Shown here piece by piece: positions 10,862 through 29,606 of a DNA stretch of 64,000 bases (the first letter of the stretch is position 1; every line of letters begins with the position of its first letter). This DNA is from a virus. Lineage: Duplodnaviria > Heunggongvirae > Uroviricota > Caudoviricetes. The DNA lies in IMG/VR virus record IMGVR_UViG_2645727901_000008; one strand, given 5' to 3'. Position numbers and translations under genes: made by a program. Below the pieces are notes generated by a model. That model ran no database searches. It saw nothing but the letters and a program-made list of their open reading frames with translations, and was not told the origin of the DNA.

Positions 10862-10883
10862 ACTGCGTTAGCACTTTGAACAT

Positions 10884-10928
10884 GGCGACAACACATCTTG
10901 GTGGCTGCGTTGTCGCTGTATGTTTTTA
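10884..10928 (+). terminator. rho-independent terminator after the secreted-protein genes
   Basis: GGCGACAAC...GTTGTCGC hairpin followed by TGTATGTTTTTA. Confidence 0.5.
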
Positions 10929-10949
10929 TAATATAAAGCATTAAAGTTT

Positions 10950-11567
10950 TCATTTTTGTCGGATCTTTTCCAGCATATTTAATTCATTATCACTTTCTGC
11001 TGCTGAGACGGTTGGCCTCACATTTCCGAAATATTTCCTGTGAGACTCATGACTTATGTATTCACCGACAGTTTCATTCTTGAATATACGAATTTGACAT
11101 ATGCGAGATCCAACAATAAGTTCTACAGGGCTATTCCCATGATTAAATAACTCTAAAGATATACAGCCTCTGTACCCTGGTTGTATCATGGTATTTAATG
11201 AAAGACCAAGCCTTGTATAGCTGCTTCTGGACAATACATCAGCGTAGCAATCTGGTGGCAAACAAACATATTCTAATGTTGTTGCCAGTACCACTTGATT
11301 CGGGTAAACAATGAATCTATCCCCAAGATCTCTCCTTGTTTCCTGGAAAAATGTTCTGATTGGTTGATGAGTATCATTGTTTTTTGATGGAATTAACTCT
11401 ATTGACGGCTTCCTTGTCATAATAGACACTAAAAAATCGTAACCAAGTCTAAGGTCTATGGTGAAGTTCCCAATTTGGTTTTTATTTAGAAGAGGTTCAA
11501 TGAACAACGACTCAGGTTCTTCTGATTCATAATATTGCAGCAATTCAGCTTTGCTTAGGAGATTCAT
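10950..11567 (-). CDS. dCTP deaminase (Dcd/dUTPase-fold) family protein with catalytic residues conserved
   Basis: Alignable by eye to E. coli Dcd: IDLRLGYDF ~ [44 protein letters not shown] ~ [49 protein letters not shown] ~ GWSGCIVLEFYNSG (RSS and the catalytic Glu are retained). GGAGTG RBS supports the MNLLSK start at 11567, which overlaps the upstream stop (ATGA). Confidence 0.65.
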   Translation of the reverse strand: [205 protein letters not shown]

Positions 11568-12637
11568 TGTGCACTCCATTTTTCAAGAATCATTACGTTT
11601 CGAATCGATTTTTCAACCAAATCATTTATAGTTTTTTCTATGGCTTCTTGTGACAACCCAGACCATATACCCGTAGGTTTTTCCCATTCAGAGCATAAGT
11701 ACTGCCAGCTGCTGTTAATAAAAGCATGCATTTCATTGTGGTCGCGAATAACAAAAGGACGCACATTATCAAAAGCTGATTTCACATCAAGCAAAGGTGT
11801 CGGCAATGTCAAACAAGGAGAAATAATCTGCCCACCATTATGTAAGGCTGATATCACAGCATTGAACATGCCAACAACTGGATTTTCCACTTTGTTCAAA
11901 AAGTCGCTTACAATTTTAACTCTATCTTCTGTGGATGGGTGAGTATAGCTTGCAGGATGAGAGCCAGCTAATTTGTATAAGAAATCTACCCCACTTTTTC
12001 CAATAAATTGGGCACTAAATAGATCTGCAAAATATTCTCTGCAATGATTTATCCAAATAACATCAGGTAGATTACTCCATTCTGGTCCAGGAAGTGTGCC
12101 TTTGTCCTTGGAACGATAGTTAAGACAGGCAAGCTCAGAAATACCTTTGCTAATATCAACGAAATGTCCCAATTCGTGATATAAAGGTATAGAGCATAAT
12201 GGTCGTCTTCTGTACATTTCAGGTAATGAAATCTGAATTAATTCGACATCGAATTTGACATTTAAAACTTCGTCAAATAAAGAATACAAATTCTTGTTTA
12301 CAGACTTAAAATAAAACCCATGCATATCTGGAGATAGGGCTGTGGTTATAAGTGTTTTTTCACTTATCCATTTTTTACAGGCATCATTTAAGCAATAGAC
12401 AATCTCGTAGGGAATTTTCTTTGTAGTACTGCCAGTGAAAAAATTAACTGCATCGGTGATAAAAAAAGTACAATCCGCAATTATTTTATCAGCAACATTC
12501 ACATGGTTTTCATAGAGCTTATCCACCGCTTCTTGTAGAACAGCAAGATATTCATGCATGTCTTTAGAAAAATAGGGAGATTCTGATATCTCCCTTAGCT
12601 TATTTCGAACTAATGTAAGTTGTGTAAATGCAAGCAT
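11564..12637 (-). CDS. ImmA/IrrE-family (M78) zinc metallopeptidase-like protein with extra N- and C-terminal regions
   Basis: HExxH (LYHELGHFVD) followed about 27 aa later by HCREYFADLFSAQF, resembling the E..AN.FA..LL third-ligand motif of ImmA/IrrE. AT-rich. Coupled to both neighbours (TAATG and ATGA overlaps). Confidence 0.55.
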   Translation of the reverse strand: MLAFTQLTLVRNKLREISESPYFSKDMHEYLAVLQEAVDKLYENHVNVADKIIADCTFFITDAVNFFTGSTTKKIPYEIVYCLNDACKKWISEKTLITTALSPDMHGFYFKSVNKNLYSLFDEVLNVKFDVELIQISLPEMYRRRPLCSIPLYHELGHFVDISKGISELACLNYRSKDKGTLPGPEWSNLPDVIWINHCREYFADLFSAQFIGKSGVDFLYKLAGSHPASYTHPSTEDRVKIVSDFLNKVENPVVGMFNAVISALHNGGQIISPCLTLPTPLLDVKSAFDNVRPFVIRDHNEMHAFINSSWQYLCSEWEKPTGIWSGLSQEAIEKTINDLVEKSIRNVMILEKWSAQ

Positions 12638-12942
12638 TAAATGTACTCTAATACATTCCGGGCCATTACGGGTTCTAACATATCTTCGCTAGTTACTTTG
12701 GTTAGCACCTGGGCGAGCGCCTTAGTGTGGCGTATCTCTACCGCGAGCGAGATGGACTCTCTGTGAGAAGGAATCTGTAATTGATCACCTTTATCTACAC
12801 TTAAGTTTGAGGCTTCTCTGATCACCTCATAAACCCGTAACTTTAACTGCTGTGACACTTCTTGTTGAGATGCTATAAGCTGAAGTACAGTCTTGATCAA
12901 CTTCAAAGAATCAGAAGCTTGCTGAGGAACCGCATAGAGCAT
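12637..12942 (-). CDS. small alpha-helical protein (101 aa), first gene of the peptidase-deaminase operon
   Basis: Strong AAAGGAGGGG RBS before ATG 12942. Stop overlaps the next start. Confidence 0.5.
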   Translation of the reverse strand: MLYAVPQQASDSLKLIKTVLQLIASQQEVSQQLKLRVYEVIREASNLSVDKGDQLQIPSHRESISLAVEIRHTKALAQVLTKVTSEDMLEPVMARNVLEYI

Positions 12943-13079
12943 AACCCCTCCTTTCCCTTATCTATAACCGCTTTCTTTTTTCTGTGTATGTTAAAAGTAG
13001 AAGCGGTTTTTACCTTTTGTAATATATATAGTGTCTAAAACTAACTTTGGCACTATATATGGCATGATATCTATGTTTT

Positions 13080-13121
13080 AAAGACACAAAAGCTCTGTTA
13101 AAACAGAGCTTTTGTGTCTTT
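13080..13121. other. near-perfect 20-bp inverted repeat hairpin (AAAGACACAAAAGCTCTGTT / AACAGAGCTTTTGTGTCTTT) between P1-like backbone and the accessory operon
   Basis: Read from the sequence. Confidence 0.6.
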
Positions 13122-13267
13122 AACTTGATCATTTTCTCGCTGAAGTGTATGTCAGGCTTAGCTCATAATCAAGTTGCTTCCAAGCTAAAAATGAGCTAGC
13201 TCCCTGAAACACTAAGAGCGGGGTGTTTCATTTATTAGCGTTGGGCCTGACGGTGTGTAGGTGAATT

Positions 13268-13555
13268 TTAGCTCATTACTCGATAACGACGGGGAATGGA
13301 ATTCTCCATCAGGCCACGAATTACTCCCGCCTCACGTAGTTCCTCTGTCTCCCAGTATCTGTTTGTCACCAGATCGAGGCTGGCTATGACCTTGTGCCGG
13401 TCATTCGGCATAGCTAATTTTTCTGCTATAACCATCAGTGAAAACTCTTCATCCAGTAGAATTTGATAGCAGTTTTTTGATAGTTCCACTTCCCTTATGA
13501 GACTGAAACGTCGCTGGATTGTGGCAGTAGAGTAAGTGAAATCTATTTTCTTCAT
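13268..13555 (-). CDS. hypothetical protein
   Basis: 95-aa ORF. Confidence 0.4.
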   Translation of the reverse strand: MKKIDFTYSTATIQRRFSLIREVELSKNCYQILLDEEFSLMVIAEKLAMPNDRHKVIASLDLVTNRYWETEELREAGVIRGLMENSIPRRYRVMS

Positions 13556-28419: not shown

Positions 28420-29097
28420 TCACTCCACTACAAACCAGTCACATGCCAGTAAGTCGCCTACAGAAGGAACCCACGGAACAACTACACCTTGTGCATTTTT
28501 TAAGGCGAAATAAGCACCATACGGAACGAGGTCGCCGGGGAAATATCCCTTAATGGGTTCCATTCGTGCCGGGTACTGTCCTTCAGGAACCAGCCAGCAG
28601 AATTGGTTTTCGCCGTTCCACCCGCGTCGAGCAACTTTCTTGCCATCCTTCAGCCACATCAGCGCGTCAGAAAAGTCGGCTGCTTCAAGGTCGATTTCTT
28701 CTTGCTGGGTGGTGATGCCACCAGCAGAAATAGTTACGCTCCCGGTAAGATTAATCATCACGCCGTTGTCATCCGTAATGATGACCGTGGTTCCATTTTT
28801 GGCGGCGTCGTTAACCAGGCCATAGCGTTCCTCAAATGGTTTCTCCGGGGCATAGAACAAATAACCGTTTTCATAAACGATCAGATACCCGCCAGTTTTT
28901 GGTCGGTGTTTTTGTAAAAACATTGCGTCAACACAAACTGTTGCCCCTTTTGGCTCAACGAGTTCGATGCAGCCCCAAAGTGGGGCATCAGTTACTCCGA
29001 AAATAACAACATTTTTGATTTTCGATGCACTAACGTTTTTGTGAGCTTTGTATTTGGGAAGGAACTTAAAAAGCTCTTTCGTTGCCATGTTATTCAT
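28420..29097 (-). CDS. two-domain protein with a C-terminal DUF2829 (Tad2-like, Thoeris anti-defence family) domain
   Basis: C-terminus ALMWLKDGKKVARRGWNGENQFCWLVPEG...PWVPSVGDLLACDWFVVE has the DUF2829 signature (A..G.K..R.GW.G......PW..S..D.LA.DW.VV). Confidence 0.5.
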   Translation of the reverse strand: MNNMATKELFKFLPKYKAHKNVSASKIKNVVIFGVTDAPLWGCIELVEPKGATVCVDAMFLQKHRPKTGGYLIVYENGYLFYAPEKPFEERYGLVNDAAKNGTTVIITDDNGVMINLTGSVTISAGGITTQQEEIDLEAADFSDALMWLKDGKKVARRGWNGENQFCWLVPEGQYPARMEPIKGYFPGDLVPYGAYFALKNAQGVVVPWVPSVGDLLACDWFVVE

Positions 29098-29111
29098 AGT
29101 CTTTTCTCTGC

Positions 29112-29606
29112 TTATAACTTTTCGTACTGAAGCGGTGAACGCTTAATTTCAAAGTGGCCTTCCGATGTGCTACCAAAGCCACCAGCACCACGTTCCGTTT
29201 CGTTGAGTTCCTCAACCTCGACTAGTGAGACTTGTTCAACACGCTCAAAAATGCCTTGCATGACAGCCATTCCTGGCTTGAGACAAACGCCTTCCCCGCC
29301 GGGATCAGTAATCAGTTTTGCCATGATTTCACCGCGATAATCGGAGTCGATAATTCCTACGCAGTTAGCCAGGCGAGTATGTTTTTTGCAGCCCAATCCG
29401 GATCGCGGATAGAGTTTCAGACACCAGCCGGGCGGGATCTCCATAGCCAGTCCGGTATACACCCACCAGCTTGAGGAAATTGCACCATTGCTATCGACGC
29501 ATGTTTTTATTTCAACAGCCTCAAAATCCATCGCCGCCGATCCGGAGGTGGCATAAGCTGGAAGTTTTGCTGCCGGATGTAGGCGTTTCACTTTTACGTA
29601 AATCAT
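29112..29606 (-). CDS. dut: dUTP diphosphatase (trimeric Dut)
   Basis: Dut motifs AAMDF, PRSGLG, GIIDSDYRGEI and the C-terminal GGFGSTS motif V. Confidence 0.8.
   Translation of the reverse strand: MIYVKVKRLHPAAKLPAYATSGSAAMDFEAVEIKTCVDSNGAISSSWWVYTGLAMEIPPGWCLKLYPRSGLGCKKHTRLANCVGIIDSDYRGEIMAKLITDPGGEGVCLKPGMAVMQGIFERVEQVSLVEVEELNETERGAGGFGSTSEGHFEIKRSPLQYEKL

What the first reader, a model, noticed from the sequence alone, without database searches (positions are those of the whole stretch)
10950..12942. AT-rich three-gene operon: small protein, ImmA/IrrE-like HExxH peptidase and a catalytically intact dCTP deaminase. Candidate protease-gated nucleotide-depletion (or nucleotide-pool remodelling) module
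Three tightly coupled minus-strand genes with overlapping stops and starts sit in a low-GC island. The island is flanked by a 20-bp perfect hairpin (13080..13121) and a terminator. The last gene aligns with E. coli Dcd through the RSS loop and the catalytic Glu (LELFN). The middle gene carries HELGH plus an E..A..F third-ligand motif typical of M78 ImmA/IrrE peptidases. Those peptidases normally act as damage- or infection-sensing switches (ImmR/ImmA, CapH/CapP). The known deaminase-based defences I am aware of use a zinc cytidine-deaminase fold, not the Dcd/dUTPase fold. A peptidase-coupled Dcd-fold enzyme on a phage-plasmid would therefore be new. An alternative reading is a phage dTTP-boosting pathway, given the separate dut at 29112..29606.
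Basis: partly seen in the sequence, partly recalled or inferred. Interest (0 to 1): 0.8.

Follow-up and report, generated by a model that had tools for sequence, protein, structure and literature searches.

The report
Mobile Dcd deaminase–zincin–small protein triad
A 2.4-kb low-GC cassette on a P1-type E. coli phage-plasmid carries an always-linked gene trio (small acidic protein, new zinc peptidase family, dedicated dCTP-deaminase-fold enzyme) that sits in mobile and defence islands across two phyla and is probably an undescribed nucleotide-pool-attacking defence or stress module.

Summary
The three overlapping minus-strand genes, the low-GC island and the perfect palindrome are real. C (10950-11567) is a catalytically intact Dcd-fold enzyme. 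It belongs to a dedicated subfamily with D128->Q and a loop deletion. B (11564-12637) is an HExxH...E gluzincin of a small new family with a weak M48-like signature. It is not an M78 ImmA/IrrE peptidase. A (12637-12942) is an acidic, fast-evolving orphan protein.

The trio is obligate. Dcd follows the zincin in 53 of 55 informative genome loci. The zincin precedes the Dcd in 59 of 59 metagenome loci. At least 23 natural zincin-Dcd fusions exist.

The context is mobile elements and defence islands: QatABCD, BREX, a Tn7-CAST and integrases. About a third of loci lie next to CapH/CapP regulators and Bub ubiquitination-like operons, whose biological role is unknown.

No publication I could search describes the trio, and PADLOC 2.0 does not detect it.

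Best reading: a peptidase-gated (d)CTP-deaminase defence or stress module. This is a new variant of nucleotide-depletion immunity. Function is inferred, not shown. The metabolic (dTTP-boosting) reading is disfavoured.

The parts
10864..13280 (.). Whole inserted cassette (2,417 bp, GC 0.374), replaced by about 31 bp in a sister P1-type plasmid. No target-site duplication or terminal inverted repeats.
   Evidence: blastn of the window against L068/L069 and junction inspection. Only 12 of 46 matching plasmids carry it. It is present in 8 of 5,426 complete E. coli genomes, always on plasmids.
12637..12942 (-). Gene A: 101-aa acidic, helical orphan protein. It evolves fast, and only the N-terminal M-[LFYI]-x-[AS] motif is conserved. 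Proposed inhibitor, sensor or substrate partner.
   Evidence: ORF. No Pfam, PADLOC or NCBIfam family. Homologous small ORF abuts B in 52/56 genome loci and 56/59 metagenome loci. Median pI 5.3. The profile search finds only ~100-aa orphans.
11564..12637 (-). Gene B: 357-aa soluble zinc metallopeptidase-like protein of a new gluzincin family. It has an N-terminal three-helix bundle plus a zincin core. Invariant residues are H154-E155-x-x-H158, D161, E201-x-F-x-D205, H233-P234, R239 and a C-terminal N-x-L-x-E-K-S-x-R-N...W helix.
   Evidence: Alignment A1. AF2 model with pLDDT 90 and pTM 0.90. Weak M48 hits in 15/28 members, ATLF in 8/28 and M78 in 0/28. No significant PDB or BFVD neighbour. Family size 535 clusters in 1.84 billion proteins.
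10950..11567 (-). Gene C: 205-aa Dcd/dUTPase-fold (d)CTP deaminase-like enzyme (209 aa from the alternative ATG at 11579). Dedicated subfamily. Catalytic R118/S119/S120/R123/E143 (E. coli R110/S111/S112/R115/E138) are conserved in at least 98% of members. Differences: D128->Q133, a 3-residue deletion in the H121/V122 loop, an FFQETRR motif and a C-terminal helical extension.
   Evidence: Pfam and NCBIfam. PDB sequence search. Family alignment against E. coli Dcd. C-terminal helix confident in the fusion model.
12947..12953 (-). Shine-Dalgarno AAGGAGG, ending 4 nt upstream of the ATG of gene A.
   Evidence: Read directly from the sequence. Conserved GGAGG/GGGGG in related leaders.
13024..13060 (-). 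Leader inverted repeat 2 (ATATATAGTG...CACTATATAT). Conserved, with a compensatory change, in related Gammaproteobacteria.
   Evidence: the repeat finder. Alignments and RNAalifold.
13078..13123 (-). Leader hairpin 1: perfect palindrome with 22-nt arms, at or just after the predicted transcription start. Pairing is kept by double-sided changes in Proteus and Shewanella copies.
   Evidence: the repeat finder. RNAalifold gives 34 pairs, 14 with compensatory changes. Covariance model R1 hits only close gammaproteobacterial copies. No Rfam family.
13128..13155 (-). Putative sigma-70 promoter (CTGACA-16-AATGAT). The -35 TTGACA box is conserved in Dickeya and Proteus.
   Evidence: Consensus scan and leader alignments. 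Inferred, not shown.
10899..10918 (+). Terminator-like hairpin between the convergent genes. The T-run is on the + strand only, so it is not a clear terminator for the operon.
   Evidence: Scan and sequence.

Best explanation
A-B-C is a self-contained, horizontally mobile three-gene conflict module of the anti-phage, abortive-infection or DNA-damage-stress type.

Its output is an accessory, probably unregulated Dcd-fold deaminase (C). C would convert dCTP to dUTP. That would starve replication of dCTP and flood it with dUTP/dUMP.

C is held in a complex with a dedicated zinc peptidase (B). The small acidic, fast-evolving protein A is the third partner. A most likely acts as an inhibitor or pseudo-substrate whose removal or cleavage by B, after a trigger, releases deaminase activity.

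In many bacteria the module is placed under the DNA-damage-responsive CapH/CapP switch, next to or within Bub ubiquitination-like operons. In the E. coli phage-plasmid it stands alone, behind its own promoter and a structured leader.

Shown here: gene anatomy, catalytic-residue conservation, obligate linkage, fusions and genomic context. Inferred: the deaminase substrate, toxicity, who cleaves whom, and the trigger.
For: (1) Obligate linkage in both directions. A Dcd-subfamily gene lies immediately downstream of B in 53 of 56 genome loci; of the other three, one is cut by a contig end and two lack C. B lies immediately upstream of C in 59/59 C-seeded metagenome loci with enough sequence, and A is present in 56/59.

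(2) At least 23 distinct natural B-C fusion proteins exist. They are still preceded by A. The fusion AF2 model has pTM 0.86, implying a defined B-C arrangement.

(3) Both enzymes keep all catalytic residues across phyla. C is a second Dcd beside the host's housekeeping dcd. It lacks the H121/V122 loop segment.

(4) Context:
- Proteus copy: integrase/AlpA island abutting QatABCD.
- Dickeya copy: integrase island with an HTH-M78 gene.
- Shewanella copy: next to TniQ-Csy2-Csy3.
- Flanking genes elsewhere include CapP (10 of 133 neighbours, best E 7e-73), BrxL, PglZ, DpdF, IetA, PsyrT and LmuA.
- CapP-like genes occur in 15/56 loci and Bub E1 genes in 18/56 and 18/78 loci. Co-directional BubAB-BubCD-BubE-A-B-C and capH-capP-A-B-C arrangements both occur.

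(5) The cassette is low-GC, rare and patchy, and a clean swap in a variable slot of P1-type plasmids.

(6) A is acidic and the fastest-evolving component: mean column identity is 25% for A, 46% for B and 54% for C. C is basic.

(7) dCTP deamination is an established defence output, in another fold.
Against: - There is no experimental evidence of defence, toxicity or deaminase activity for any member.
- PADLOC 2.0 does not recognise any of the three proteins.
- Bub operons, the most frequent partner, have themselves not been shown to protect against phage (PMC11601596, PMC13373217).
- The D128->Q change and the loop deletion could mean a different substrate or altered chemistry.
- Two loci keep A-B with an intact B active site but no C. 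B may therefore have a role that does not need C.
- Neighbour annotation used crude ORF calls.
Confidence: 0.55

Rival explanations
1. A-B-C is an output or accessory arm of Bub (6E/DUF6527) ubiquitination-like pathways. Under this view it needs BubA conjugation to act, or B processes Bub components. Stand-alone copies such as the E. coli one would be secondarily independent or partly functional.
For: Bub E1-containing genes lie within 4-6 kb in 18/56 genome and 18/78 metagenome loci across Alpha- and Betaproteobacteria and Bacteroidota. Bub genes and A-B-C are co-directional with roughly 50-nt gaps in Mesorhizobium, Caulobacter and Sphingomonadaceae. Bub targets and role are unknown.
Against: About two thirds of loci show no Bub genes within the sampled flanks. 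This includes the window and the Proteus, Dickeya and Aeromonas copies. The Bub papers report 544 operons without mentioning such a module. In several Bacteroidota loci A-B-C is convergent to capP rather than co-transcribed with Bub.
Confidence: 0.15
2. A-B-C is chiefly a toxin-antitoxin-like addiction module that stabilises plasmids and islands. The acidic labile antitoxin A neutralises the basic toxin C, and B is a dedicated antitoxin protease.
For: Small acidic upstream gene overlapping the next gene, and a basic enzyme. Location on non-mobilizable plasmids and integrative islands. The sister plasmid backbone carries other TA genes (HigB).
Against: A dedicated protease encoded between antitoxin and toxin is atypical, and so is fusion of that protease to the toxin. 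Association with CapH/CapP and defence genes points to inducible immunity. The TA and defence roles are not mutually exclusive.
Confidence: 0.12
3. The roles are reversed. The Dcd-fold protein is a nucleotide sensor, for example of phage-made modified dCTP or dUTP. The zincin is the effector that cleaves an essential host or phage protein, as the Lit protease cleaves EF-Tu.
For: Two loci keep A-B with an intact HExxH/ExFxD/THP set but no C. dUTPase-fold proteins can act as signalling proteins (general knowledge). B's active site is invariant.
Against: All deaminase catalytic residues of C (R110, S111, S112, R115, E138) are at least 98% conserved. A pure sensor would not need that. B is never found with a different partner in place of C.
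Confidence: 0.1
4. It is a metabolic module that benefits the phage-plasmid. An extra Dcd would boost dUMP/dTTP synthesis for replication, together with the plasmid's dut.
For: C passes the TIGR02274 equivalog cut-off and is annotated dcd in RefSeq. A dut gene exists at 29112-29606. Some phages encode Dcd (phrog_1663).
Against: dut with its DUF2829 neighbour occurs in at least 118 plasmids against 12 with the cassette, so the two are not linked. Only 3 viral contigs carry the module. Most copies are chromosomal-island cargo next to defence genes. No thymidylate synthase appears among the frequent neighbours. A metabolic Dcd has no need for an obligate zincin and an orphan partner.
Confidence: 0.05

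Closest known systems
Defensive dCTP deaminase / AvcD (Tal et al. 2021-22; Hsueh et al. 2022)
   Same: The predicted biochemical output is the same: deamination of deoxycytidine nucleotides to deplete dCTP during infection. The genomic habitat in defence islands and mobile elements is also shared.
   Different: The fold is entirely different: trimeric Dcd/dUTPase beta-barrel against zinc-dependent CDA fold plus kinase/P-loop domain. There is no PADLOC match. The regulators differ: a zincin plus an acidic small protein instead of an intramolecular kinase domain or the AvcI sRNA.
Housekeeping dCTP deaminase Dcd (E. coli b2065; TIGR02274, PF22769)
   Same: Same fold. Same catalytic Arg-Ser-Ser...Arg...Glu constellation. 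Scores above the equivalog cut-off.
   Different: A distinct subfamily (E about 1e-15 to E. coli Dcd against 1e-43 to 1e-87 within the subfamily). It has D128->Q, a 3-residue deletion in the H121/V122 loop, extra conserved motifs and a C-terminal helix. It is always encoded with the zincin and is sometimes fused to it. It is accessory and mobile.
CapH/CapP and ImmR/ImmA (M78 peptidase plus HTH repressor switches)
   Same: The concept is shared: a zinc peptidase paired with a small partner gates an immune or MGE response. Genuine CapH/CapP pairs flank the module in 15/56 loci.
   Different: B is not M78. A is acidic and has no HTH. B is physically coupled or fused to the effector enzyme rather than acting only on a repressor.
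M48 metallopeptidases (HtpX, Ste24, BepA)
   Same: The motif pattern HExxH ... ExxAD ... HPxxxxR is shared. Weak PF01435 hits occur in 15/28 members, over the Glu helix and HP motif.
   Different: All hits are below the Pfam gathering score. The A1 profile matches no PDB sequence, and Foldseek finds no significant PDB fold match. B is a soluble protein with an N-terminal three-helix bundle. The family is self-contained, with 535 clusters.
Bub (6E/DUF6527) bacterial ubiquitination-like operons (Ye et al. 2024; PMC11601596)
   Same: They co-occur in the same loci and sometimes in the same apparent operon. They share CapH/CapP regulation and a mobile-element habitat.
   Different: A, B and C share no domains with BubA-E. 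Most copies of the module, including this one, have no Bub genes nearby.

Membership tests
dCTP deaminase Dcd (TIGR02274 / PF22769) | Profile match above the curated cut-off | tested here: met
   TIGR02274 gives 113.3 bits against a cut-off of 92.8. PF22769 gives E 1.3e-30.
dCTP deaminase Dcd (TIGR02274 / PF22769) | Catalytic Ser111, Arg115 and Glu138 (E. coli numbering) | tested here: met
   S119, R123 and E143 are at least 98% conserved in 53 family members.
dCTP deaminase Dcd (TIGR02274 / PF22769) | Conserved Asp128 (I-D-P-G-W) and the H121/V122 loop of regulated Dcd enzymes | tested here: not met
   Gln replaces Asp in 94% of members, and the loop has a 3-residue deletion. The functional consequence is unknown.
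dCTP deaminase Dcd (TIGR02274 / PF22769) | dCTP to dUTP activity and dTTP feedback inhibition | not testable with these tools
   Needs an enzyme assay.
M78 ImmA/IrrE/CapP peptidases (PF06114) | Profile homology beyond the HExxH motif | tested here: not met
   No PF06114 hit in 28/28 members. hhalign against the CapP family gives 15 columns and probability 22%.
M78 ImmA/IrrE/CapP peptidases (PF06114) | Cognate HTH repressor as the adjacent partner or substrate | tested here: not met
   A has no significant HTH match, has a median pI of 5.3 and is an orphan.
M48 peptidases (PF01435) | Profile match above the gathering score | tested here: not met
   16.1 bits against 20.3 for the window protein. 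The best family member reaches E 2.3e-4.
M48 peptidases (PF01435) | HExxH ... ExxAD ... HPxxxxR motif set | tested here: met
   Invariant H154, E155, H158, E201, D205, H233, P234 and R239.
Zincin metallopeptidase fold (clan MA gluzincins) | Beta-sheet, active-site helix bearing HExxH, and a downstream Glu-bearing helix | tested here: met
   AF2 secondary structure shows strands 95-102, 109-111 and 132-139, helix 151-164 (HELGH) and helix 192-212 (E201), at pLDDT 90. Fold searches gave no significant neighbour, so this rests on topology and motifs.
Known nucleotide-depletion defence deaminases (dCTP deaminase / AvcD) | Zinc-dependent CDA-fold deaminase domain with an N-terminal kinase/P-loop domain | tested here: not met
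   No PADLOC match. C has only Dcd/dUTPase-fold domains. The architecture of the known system is taken from the paper.
CapH/CapP-controlled immune operons | capH+capP pair adjacent to the operon | tested here: inconclusive
   Met in 15/56 homologous loci, including capH-capP-A-B-C co-directional cases. Absent from the 64-kb window.
Bub (6E/DUF6527) operons | Ubl, E2, E1 and DUF6527 genes in the locus | tested here: inconclusive
   Present next to A-B-C in 18/56 and 18/78 loci. Absent from the window.
Anti-phage defence system (functional class) | Protection against phage when expressed | not testable with these tools
   Only guilt by association is available.

The most novel reading that the evidence does not exclude
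The triad is the missing output module of a subset of Bub ubiquitination-like pathways, or more broadly of CapH/CapP-controlled DNA-damage responses. Induction or Ubl conjugation would trigger the zincin to unleash an unregulated Dcd-fold deaminase. That enzyme would convert dCTP to dUTP, or act on a modified cytosine nucleotide given the D128->Q change. It would be the first immune use of the Dcd/dUTPase fold and the first functional handle on Bub systems.
Probability: 0.2. Interest if true: 0.88.

Novelty: new variant of a known kind. Interest (0 to 1): 0.72.

Why it matters
If the inference holds, it adds a third, structurally unrelated route to nucleotide-pool immunity, using a housekeeping-type Dcd fold. 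Annotation pipelines currently label that enzyme as ordinary 'dcd', which hides it.

It also defines a new soluble zincin family that is obligately coupled, and sometimes fused, to a nucleotide enzyme. That is an unusual regulatory pairing.

It gives the Bub ubiquitination-like operons a concrete, testable partner. Their targets and biological role are still open according to 2024-2026 papers.

It identifies accessory cargo in a variable slot of P1-type phage-plasmids. Such cargo could shape superinfection outcomes in E. coli and Salmonella.

Tried and rejected
- M78 ImmA/IrrE assignment of B: rejected.
- CBASS hypothesis for the neighbouring E1/JAB genes: rejected. The genes examined by Pfam are Multi_ubiq+Prok-E2_E, JAB+ThiF and DUF6527, which identifies them as Bub. 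No CD-NTase was found among them.
- A as a DNA-binding autorepressor of the conserved palindromes: considered unlikely because A is acidic and has no HTH. Not excluded.
- Rfam match for the leader: none.
- Leader covariance model as a universal fourth component: rejected, because it is restricted to close gammaproteobacterial copies.
- Transposon-like cassette ends: none found.
- dut linkage: rejected.
- Interface analysis of the B-C fusion model: not possible because coordinates and PAE are not exposed.
- A first attempt to find M78 neighbours with the Dickeya HTH-M78 protein as seed found nothing. The CapP family was found with a Bacteroidota seed instead.
- Literature: ten searches and six papers read found no description of the trio. 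The DefensePredictor 'dUTPase' candidate is a different architecture.
Full report
ANATOMY. The window carries three minus-strand ORFs:
- A, 12942..12637, 101 aa.
- B, 12637..11564, 357 aa.
- C, 11579..10950, 209 aa.

RefSeq and the family consensus favour a C start at 11567 (205 aa). That gives a 4-nt ATGA overlap with B. A and B overlap by 1 nt.

GC is 0.34-0.39 over the operon against 0.45-0.52 in the flanks. Comparison with a sister plasmid shows that 10864..13280 (2,417 bp, GC 0.374) is a clean cassette. About 31 bp of unrelated sequence replaces it there. There is no target-site duplication or terminal repeat.

The replicon is a ~90-95 kb non-mobilizable P1-type phage-plasmid of E. coli and Salmonella, carrying icd, ant, ref, mat, dam and tail genes. 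Only 12 of 46 matching plasmids carry the cassette. So do only 8 of 5,426 complete E. coli genomes, and never on a chromosome. Other plasmids hold unrelated small genes in the same slot, beside the icd/ant immunity region.

THE THREE PROTEINS.

C is a Dcd/dUTPase-fold enzyme. PF22769 gives E 1.3e-30 and TIGR02274 gives 113 bits against a cut-off of 92.8. The best PDB matches are dCTP deaminases.

I aligned 53 family members with E. coli Dcd, which I fetched from K-12. The catalytic R110, S111, S112, R115 and E138 are at least 98% conserved. Three features set the subfamily apart:
- D128 is Gln in 94% of members.
- The H121/V122 loop is 3 residues shorter.
- Subfamily-specific motifs (FFQETRR, R-P) and a C-terminal extension are present.

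Members from other phyla match the window protein at E 1e-43 to 1e-87, against about 1e-15 for housekeeping Dcd.

B has invariant H154-E155-x-x-H158, D161, E201-x-F-x-D205, H233-P234, R239 and a C-terminal N-x-L-x-E-K-S-x-R-N...W helix. Its AF2 model (pLDDT 90, pTM 0.90) shows an N-terminal three-helix bundle followed by a zincin-type sheet, an active-site helix and a Glu helix.

The family assignment of B was tested in several ways:
- Against Pfam, 15/28 members hit M48 weakly, 8/28 hit the lethal-factor zincin family and none hits M78.
- hhalign against genuine CapP/M78 peptidases aligns only 15 columns, at probability 22%.
- No solved or viral predicted structure is a significant neighbour.
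- The family has just 535 clusters (50% identity) among 1.84 billion proteins.

B is therefore a new gluzincin family with an M48-like motif set. It is not an ImmA/IrrE peptidase.

A has no family in any library searched. It is acidic (median pI 5.3) and the fastest-evolving of the three. Mean column identity is 25% for A, 46% for B and 54% for C. Only an N-terminal M-[LFYI]-x-[AS] motif is shared. A profile search finds only ~100-aa orphans, with no fusions.

LINKAGE. A genome scan seeded with B returned 56 loci from Alpha-, Beta- and Gammaproteobacteria, Desulfobacterota, Leptospirales and many Bacteroidota.
- The Dcd-subfamily gene is immediately downstream of B in 53 loci. Of the other three, one is cut by a contig end and two genuinely lack C while keeping an intact B active site.
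- An A-like ORF abuts B in 52 of 56 loci. The proteobacterial and Bacteroidota A families are bridged by L054.
- In the reverse test, a metagenome scan seeded with the C subfamily, B was immediately upstream in 59/59 loci with enough sequence, and A was present in 56/59.
- At least 23 distinct natural B-C fusion proteins exist in Chitinophagales-type Bacteroidota, still preceded by A.
- The fusion model has pTM 0.86. The Dcd insertion loop and C-terminal lid are disordered, and the C-terminal helix is confident.

CONTEXT.
- Proteus mirabilis: the trio lies in an integrase/AlpA island abutting QatABCD.
- Dickeya: an integrase island with an HTH-M78 gene.
- Shewanella: next to TniQ-Csy2-Csy3 of a Tn7-like CRISPR-associated transposon.
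- Aeromonas: next to uvrD.
- Only three viral contigs carry the trio.

I sampled 133 flanking ORFs, up to two per side. The commonest families were Peptidase_M78 (10, matching PADLOC capP at up to E 7e-73), ThiF (7), phage integrase (6) and Prok-JAB (5). Single hits included BrxL, PglZ, DpdF, IetA, PsyrT and LmuA.

Iterative searches place CapP-like genes in 15/56 loci and a ThiF-containing gene in 18/56. Pfam identifies the partners as Multi_ubiq+Prok-E2_E, JAB+ThiF and DUF6527. That is a Type I Bub operon, or a Type II-like set. It is not CBASS.

Three arrangements recur:
- BubAB-BubCD-BubE-A-B-C, co-directional, in Alphaproteobacteria.
- capH-capP-A-B-C, divergent from Bub.
- A-B-C convergent to capP-capH, with Bub beyond.

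According to PMC11601596 and PMC13373217, Bub operons are often controlled by CapH/CapP. Their targets and biological role are unknown, and no phage protection has been shown. Neither paper mentions a deaminase. The 64-kb window has no Bub or CapH/CapP genes.

LEADER. Upstream of A lie four elements:
- A conserved -35-like TTGACA box.
- A perfect palindrome with 22-nt arms (13078-13123).
- A second inverted repeat (13024-13060).
- A strong Shine-Dalgarno.

Across E. coli, Proteus, Dickeya, Aeromonas and Shewanella copies, both stems are kept. Of 34 predicted pairs, 14 show double-sided changes. No Rfam family matches. A covariance model finds the element only in close gammaproteobacterial copies. 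It is a clade-specific cis-element, either a 5' leader RNA structure or a hairpin-type operator. I could not decide which.

INTERPRETATION. The data support a dedicated, mobile conflict module. Its conserved output is most plausibly cytosine-nucleotide deamination by an accessory Dcd that is physically coupled to a zincin. An acidic, fast-evolving third partner accompanies them.

The most economical mechanism has three steps, all inferred:
- A restrains the B-C complex as an inhibitor or pseudo-substrate.
- A trigger such as infection or DNA damage leads B to remove that restraint.
- C then depletes dCTP and raises dUTP/dUMP.

dCTP deamination is an established defence output, but in a kinase plus zinc-CDA architecture.

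The metabolic reading is weak. The plasmid's dut occurs in at least 118 plasmids against 12 for the cassette. Thymidylate synthase is not among the frequent neighbours. A metabolic Dcd has no need for an obligate zincin.

Three alternatives are not excluded:
- A Bub-dependent role.
- A TA-like addiction role.
- A reversed sensor/effector assignment. The two A-B-only loci hint that B can stand without C.

PRIOR KNOWLEDGE. Ten literature searches and targeted reading found no description of this trio. PADLOC 2.0 has no model for it. PHROGs lists the three proteins as unknown-function families. The 'dUTPase' candidate in DefensePredictor is a MazG-C/dUTPase/aGPT-Pplase system, which is unrelated. 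I could not check the newest DefenseFinder or PADLOC releases, or subscription-only papers.

VERDICT. I rate it a new variant of nucleotide-pool immunity, built from a new Dcd subfamily, a new zincin family and an orphan protein. It has an unreported link to Bub/CapHP loci. Function is unproven. Interest 0.72.

Noticed in passing
window 28420-29606 (minus strand): A dUTPase gene (29112-29606, PF00692, E 6e-15) sits next to a 225-aa protein with a Tad2-like Thoeris anti-defence domain (DUF2829, 28420-29097). The pair occurs in at least 118 P1-type plasmids, independently of the cassette.
   Followed up: partly
L016-L021, L003, L009, L020, L022, L028, L031, L033, L034, L043, L047, L048, L053, L055 (genome loci); 18 of L074-L153: Bub (6E/DUF6527) ubiquitination-like operons and CapH/CapP pairs lie next to the A-B-C trio, sometimes co-directionally. 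This association is not mentioned in the Bub or CapK/CapS papers I read.
   Followed up: partly
L037 1826-3736; L051 5857-7728; proteins P0121-P0143: Natural zincin-Dcd fusion proteins of 547-640 aa occur in Chitinophagales-type Bacteroidota. The fusion AF2 model has pTM 0.86, but the interface could not be inspected.
   Followed up: partly
L015 5676-7077; L053 5490-6939: Two loci carry A and B, with intact HExxH / ExFxD / THP motifs, but no Dcd gene or remnant. In L053 the pair abuts a Bub operon.
   Followed up: partly
L073 1-6095 (Shewanella sp.): The trio lies directly beside TniQ-Csy2-Csy3. This suggests it is cargo of a Tn7-like CRISPR-associated transposon.
   Followed up: no
window 13268-13555 (minus strand): The right cassette junction replaces the 3' end of a conserved small gene. 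The gene is 95 aa here and 103 aa in the sister plasmid, and the C-termini diverge exactly at the junction.
   Followed up: partly
window 13078-13146, both strands: The leader covariance model also scores on the opposite strand at the palindrome (50-54 bits). This is expected for a perfect palindrome, so strand of function cannot be inferred from it.
   Followed up: no
L001 6786-7451 (sister plasmid NZ_CP117014): A HigB/HTH toxin-antitoxin pair lies about 5 kb from the cassette on the same plasmid backbone. I did not check it in the window itself.
   Followed up: no
L062 11779-13521 (Dickeya): An HTH-M78 fusion protein (375 aa) and a 199-aa unknown protein lie immediately downstream of the trio on the opposite strand. 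This may be another regulator pair.
   Followed up: no
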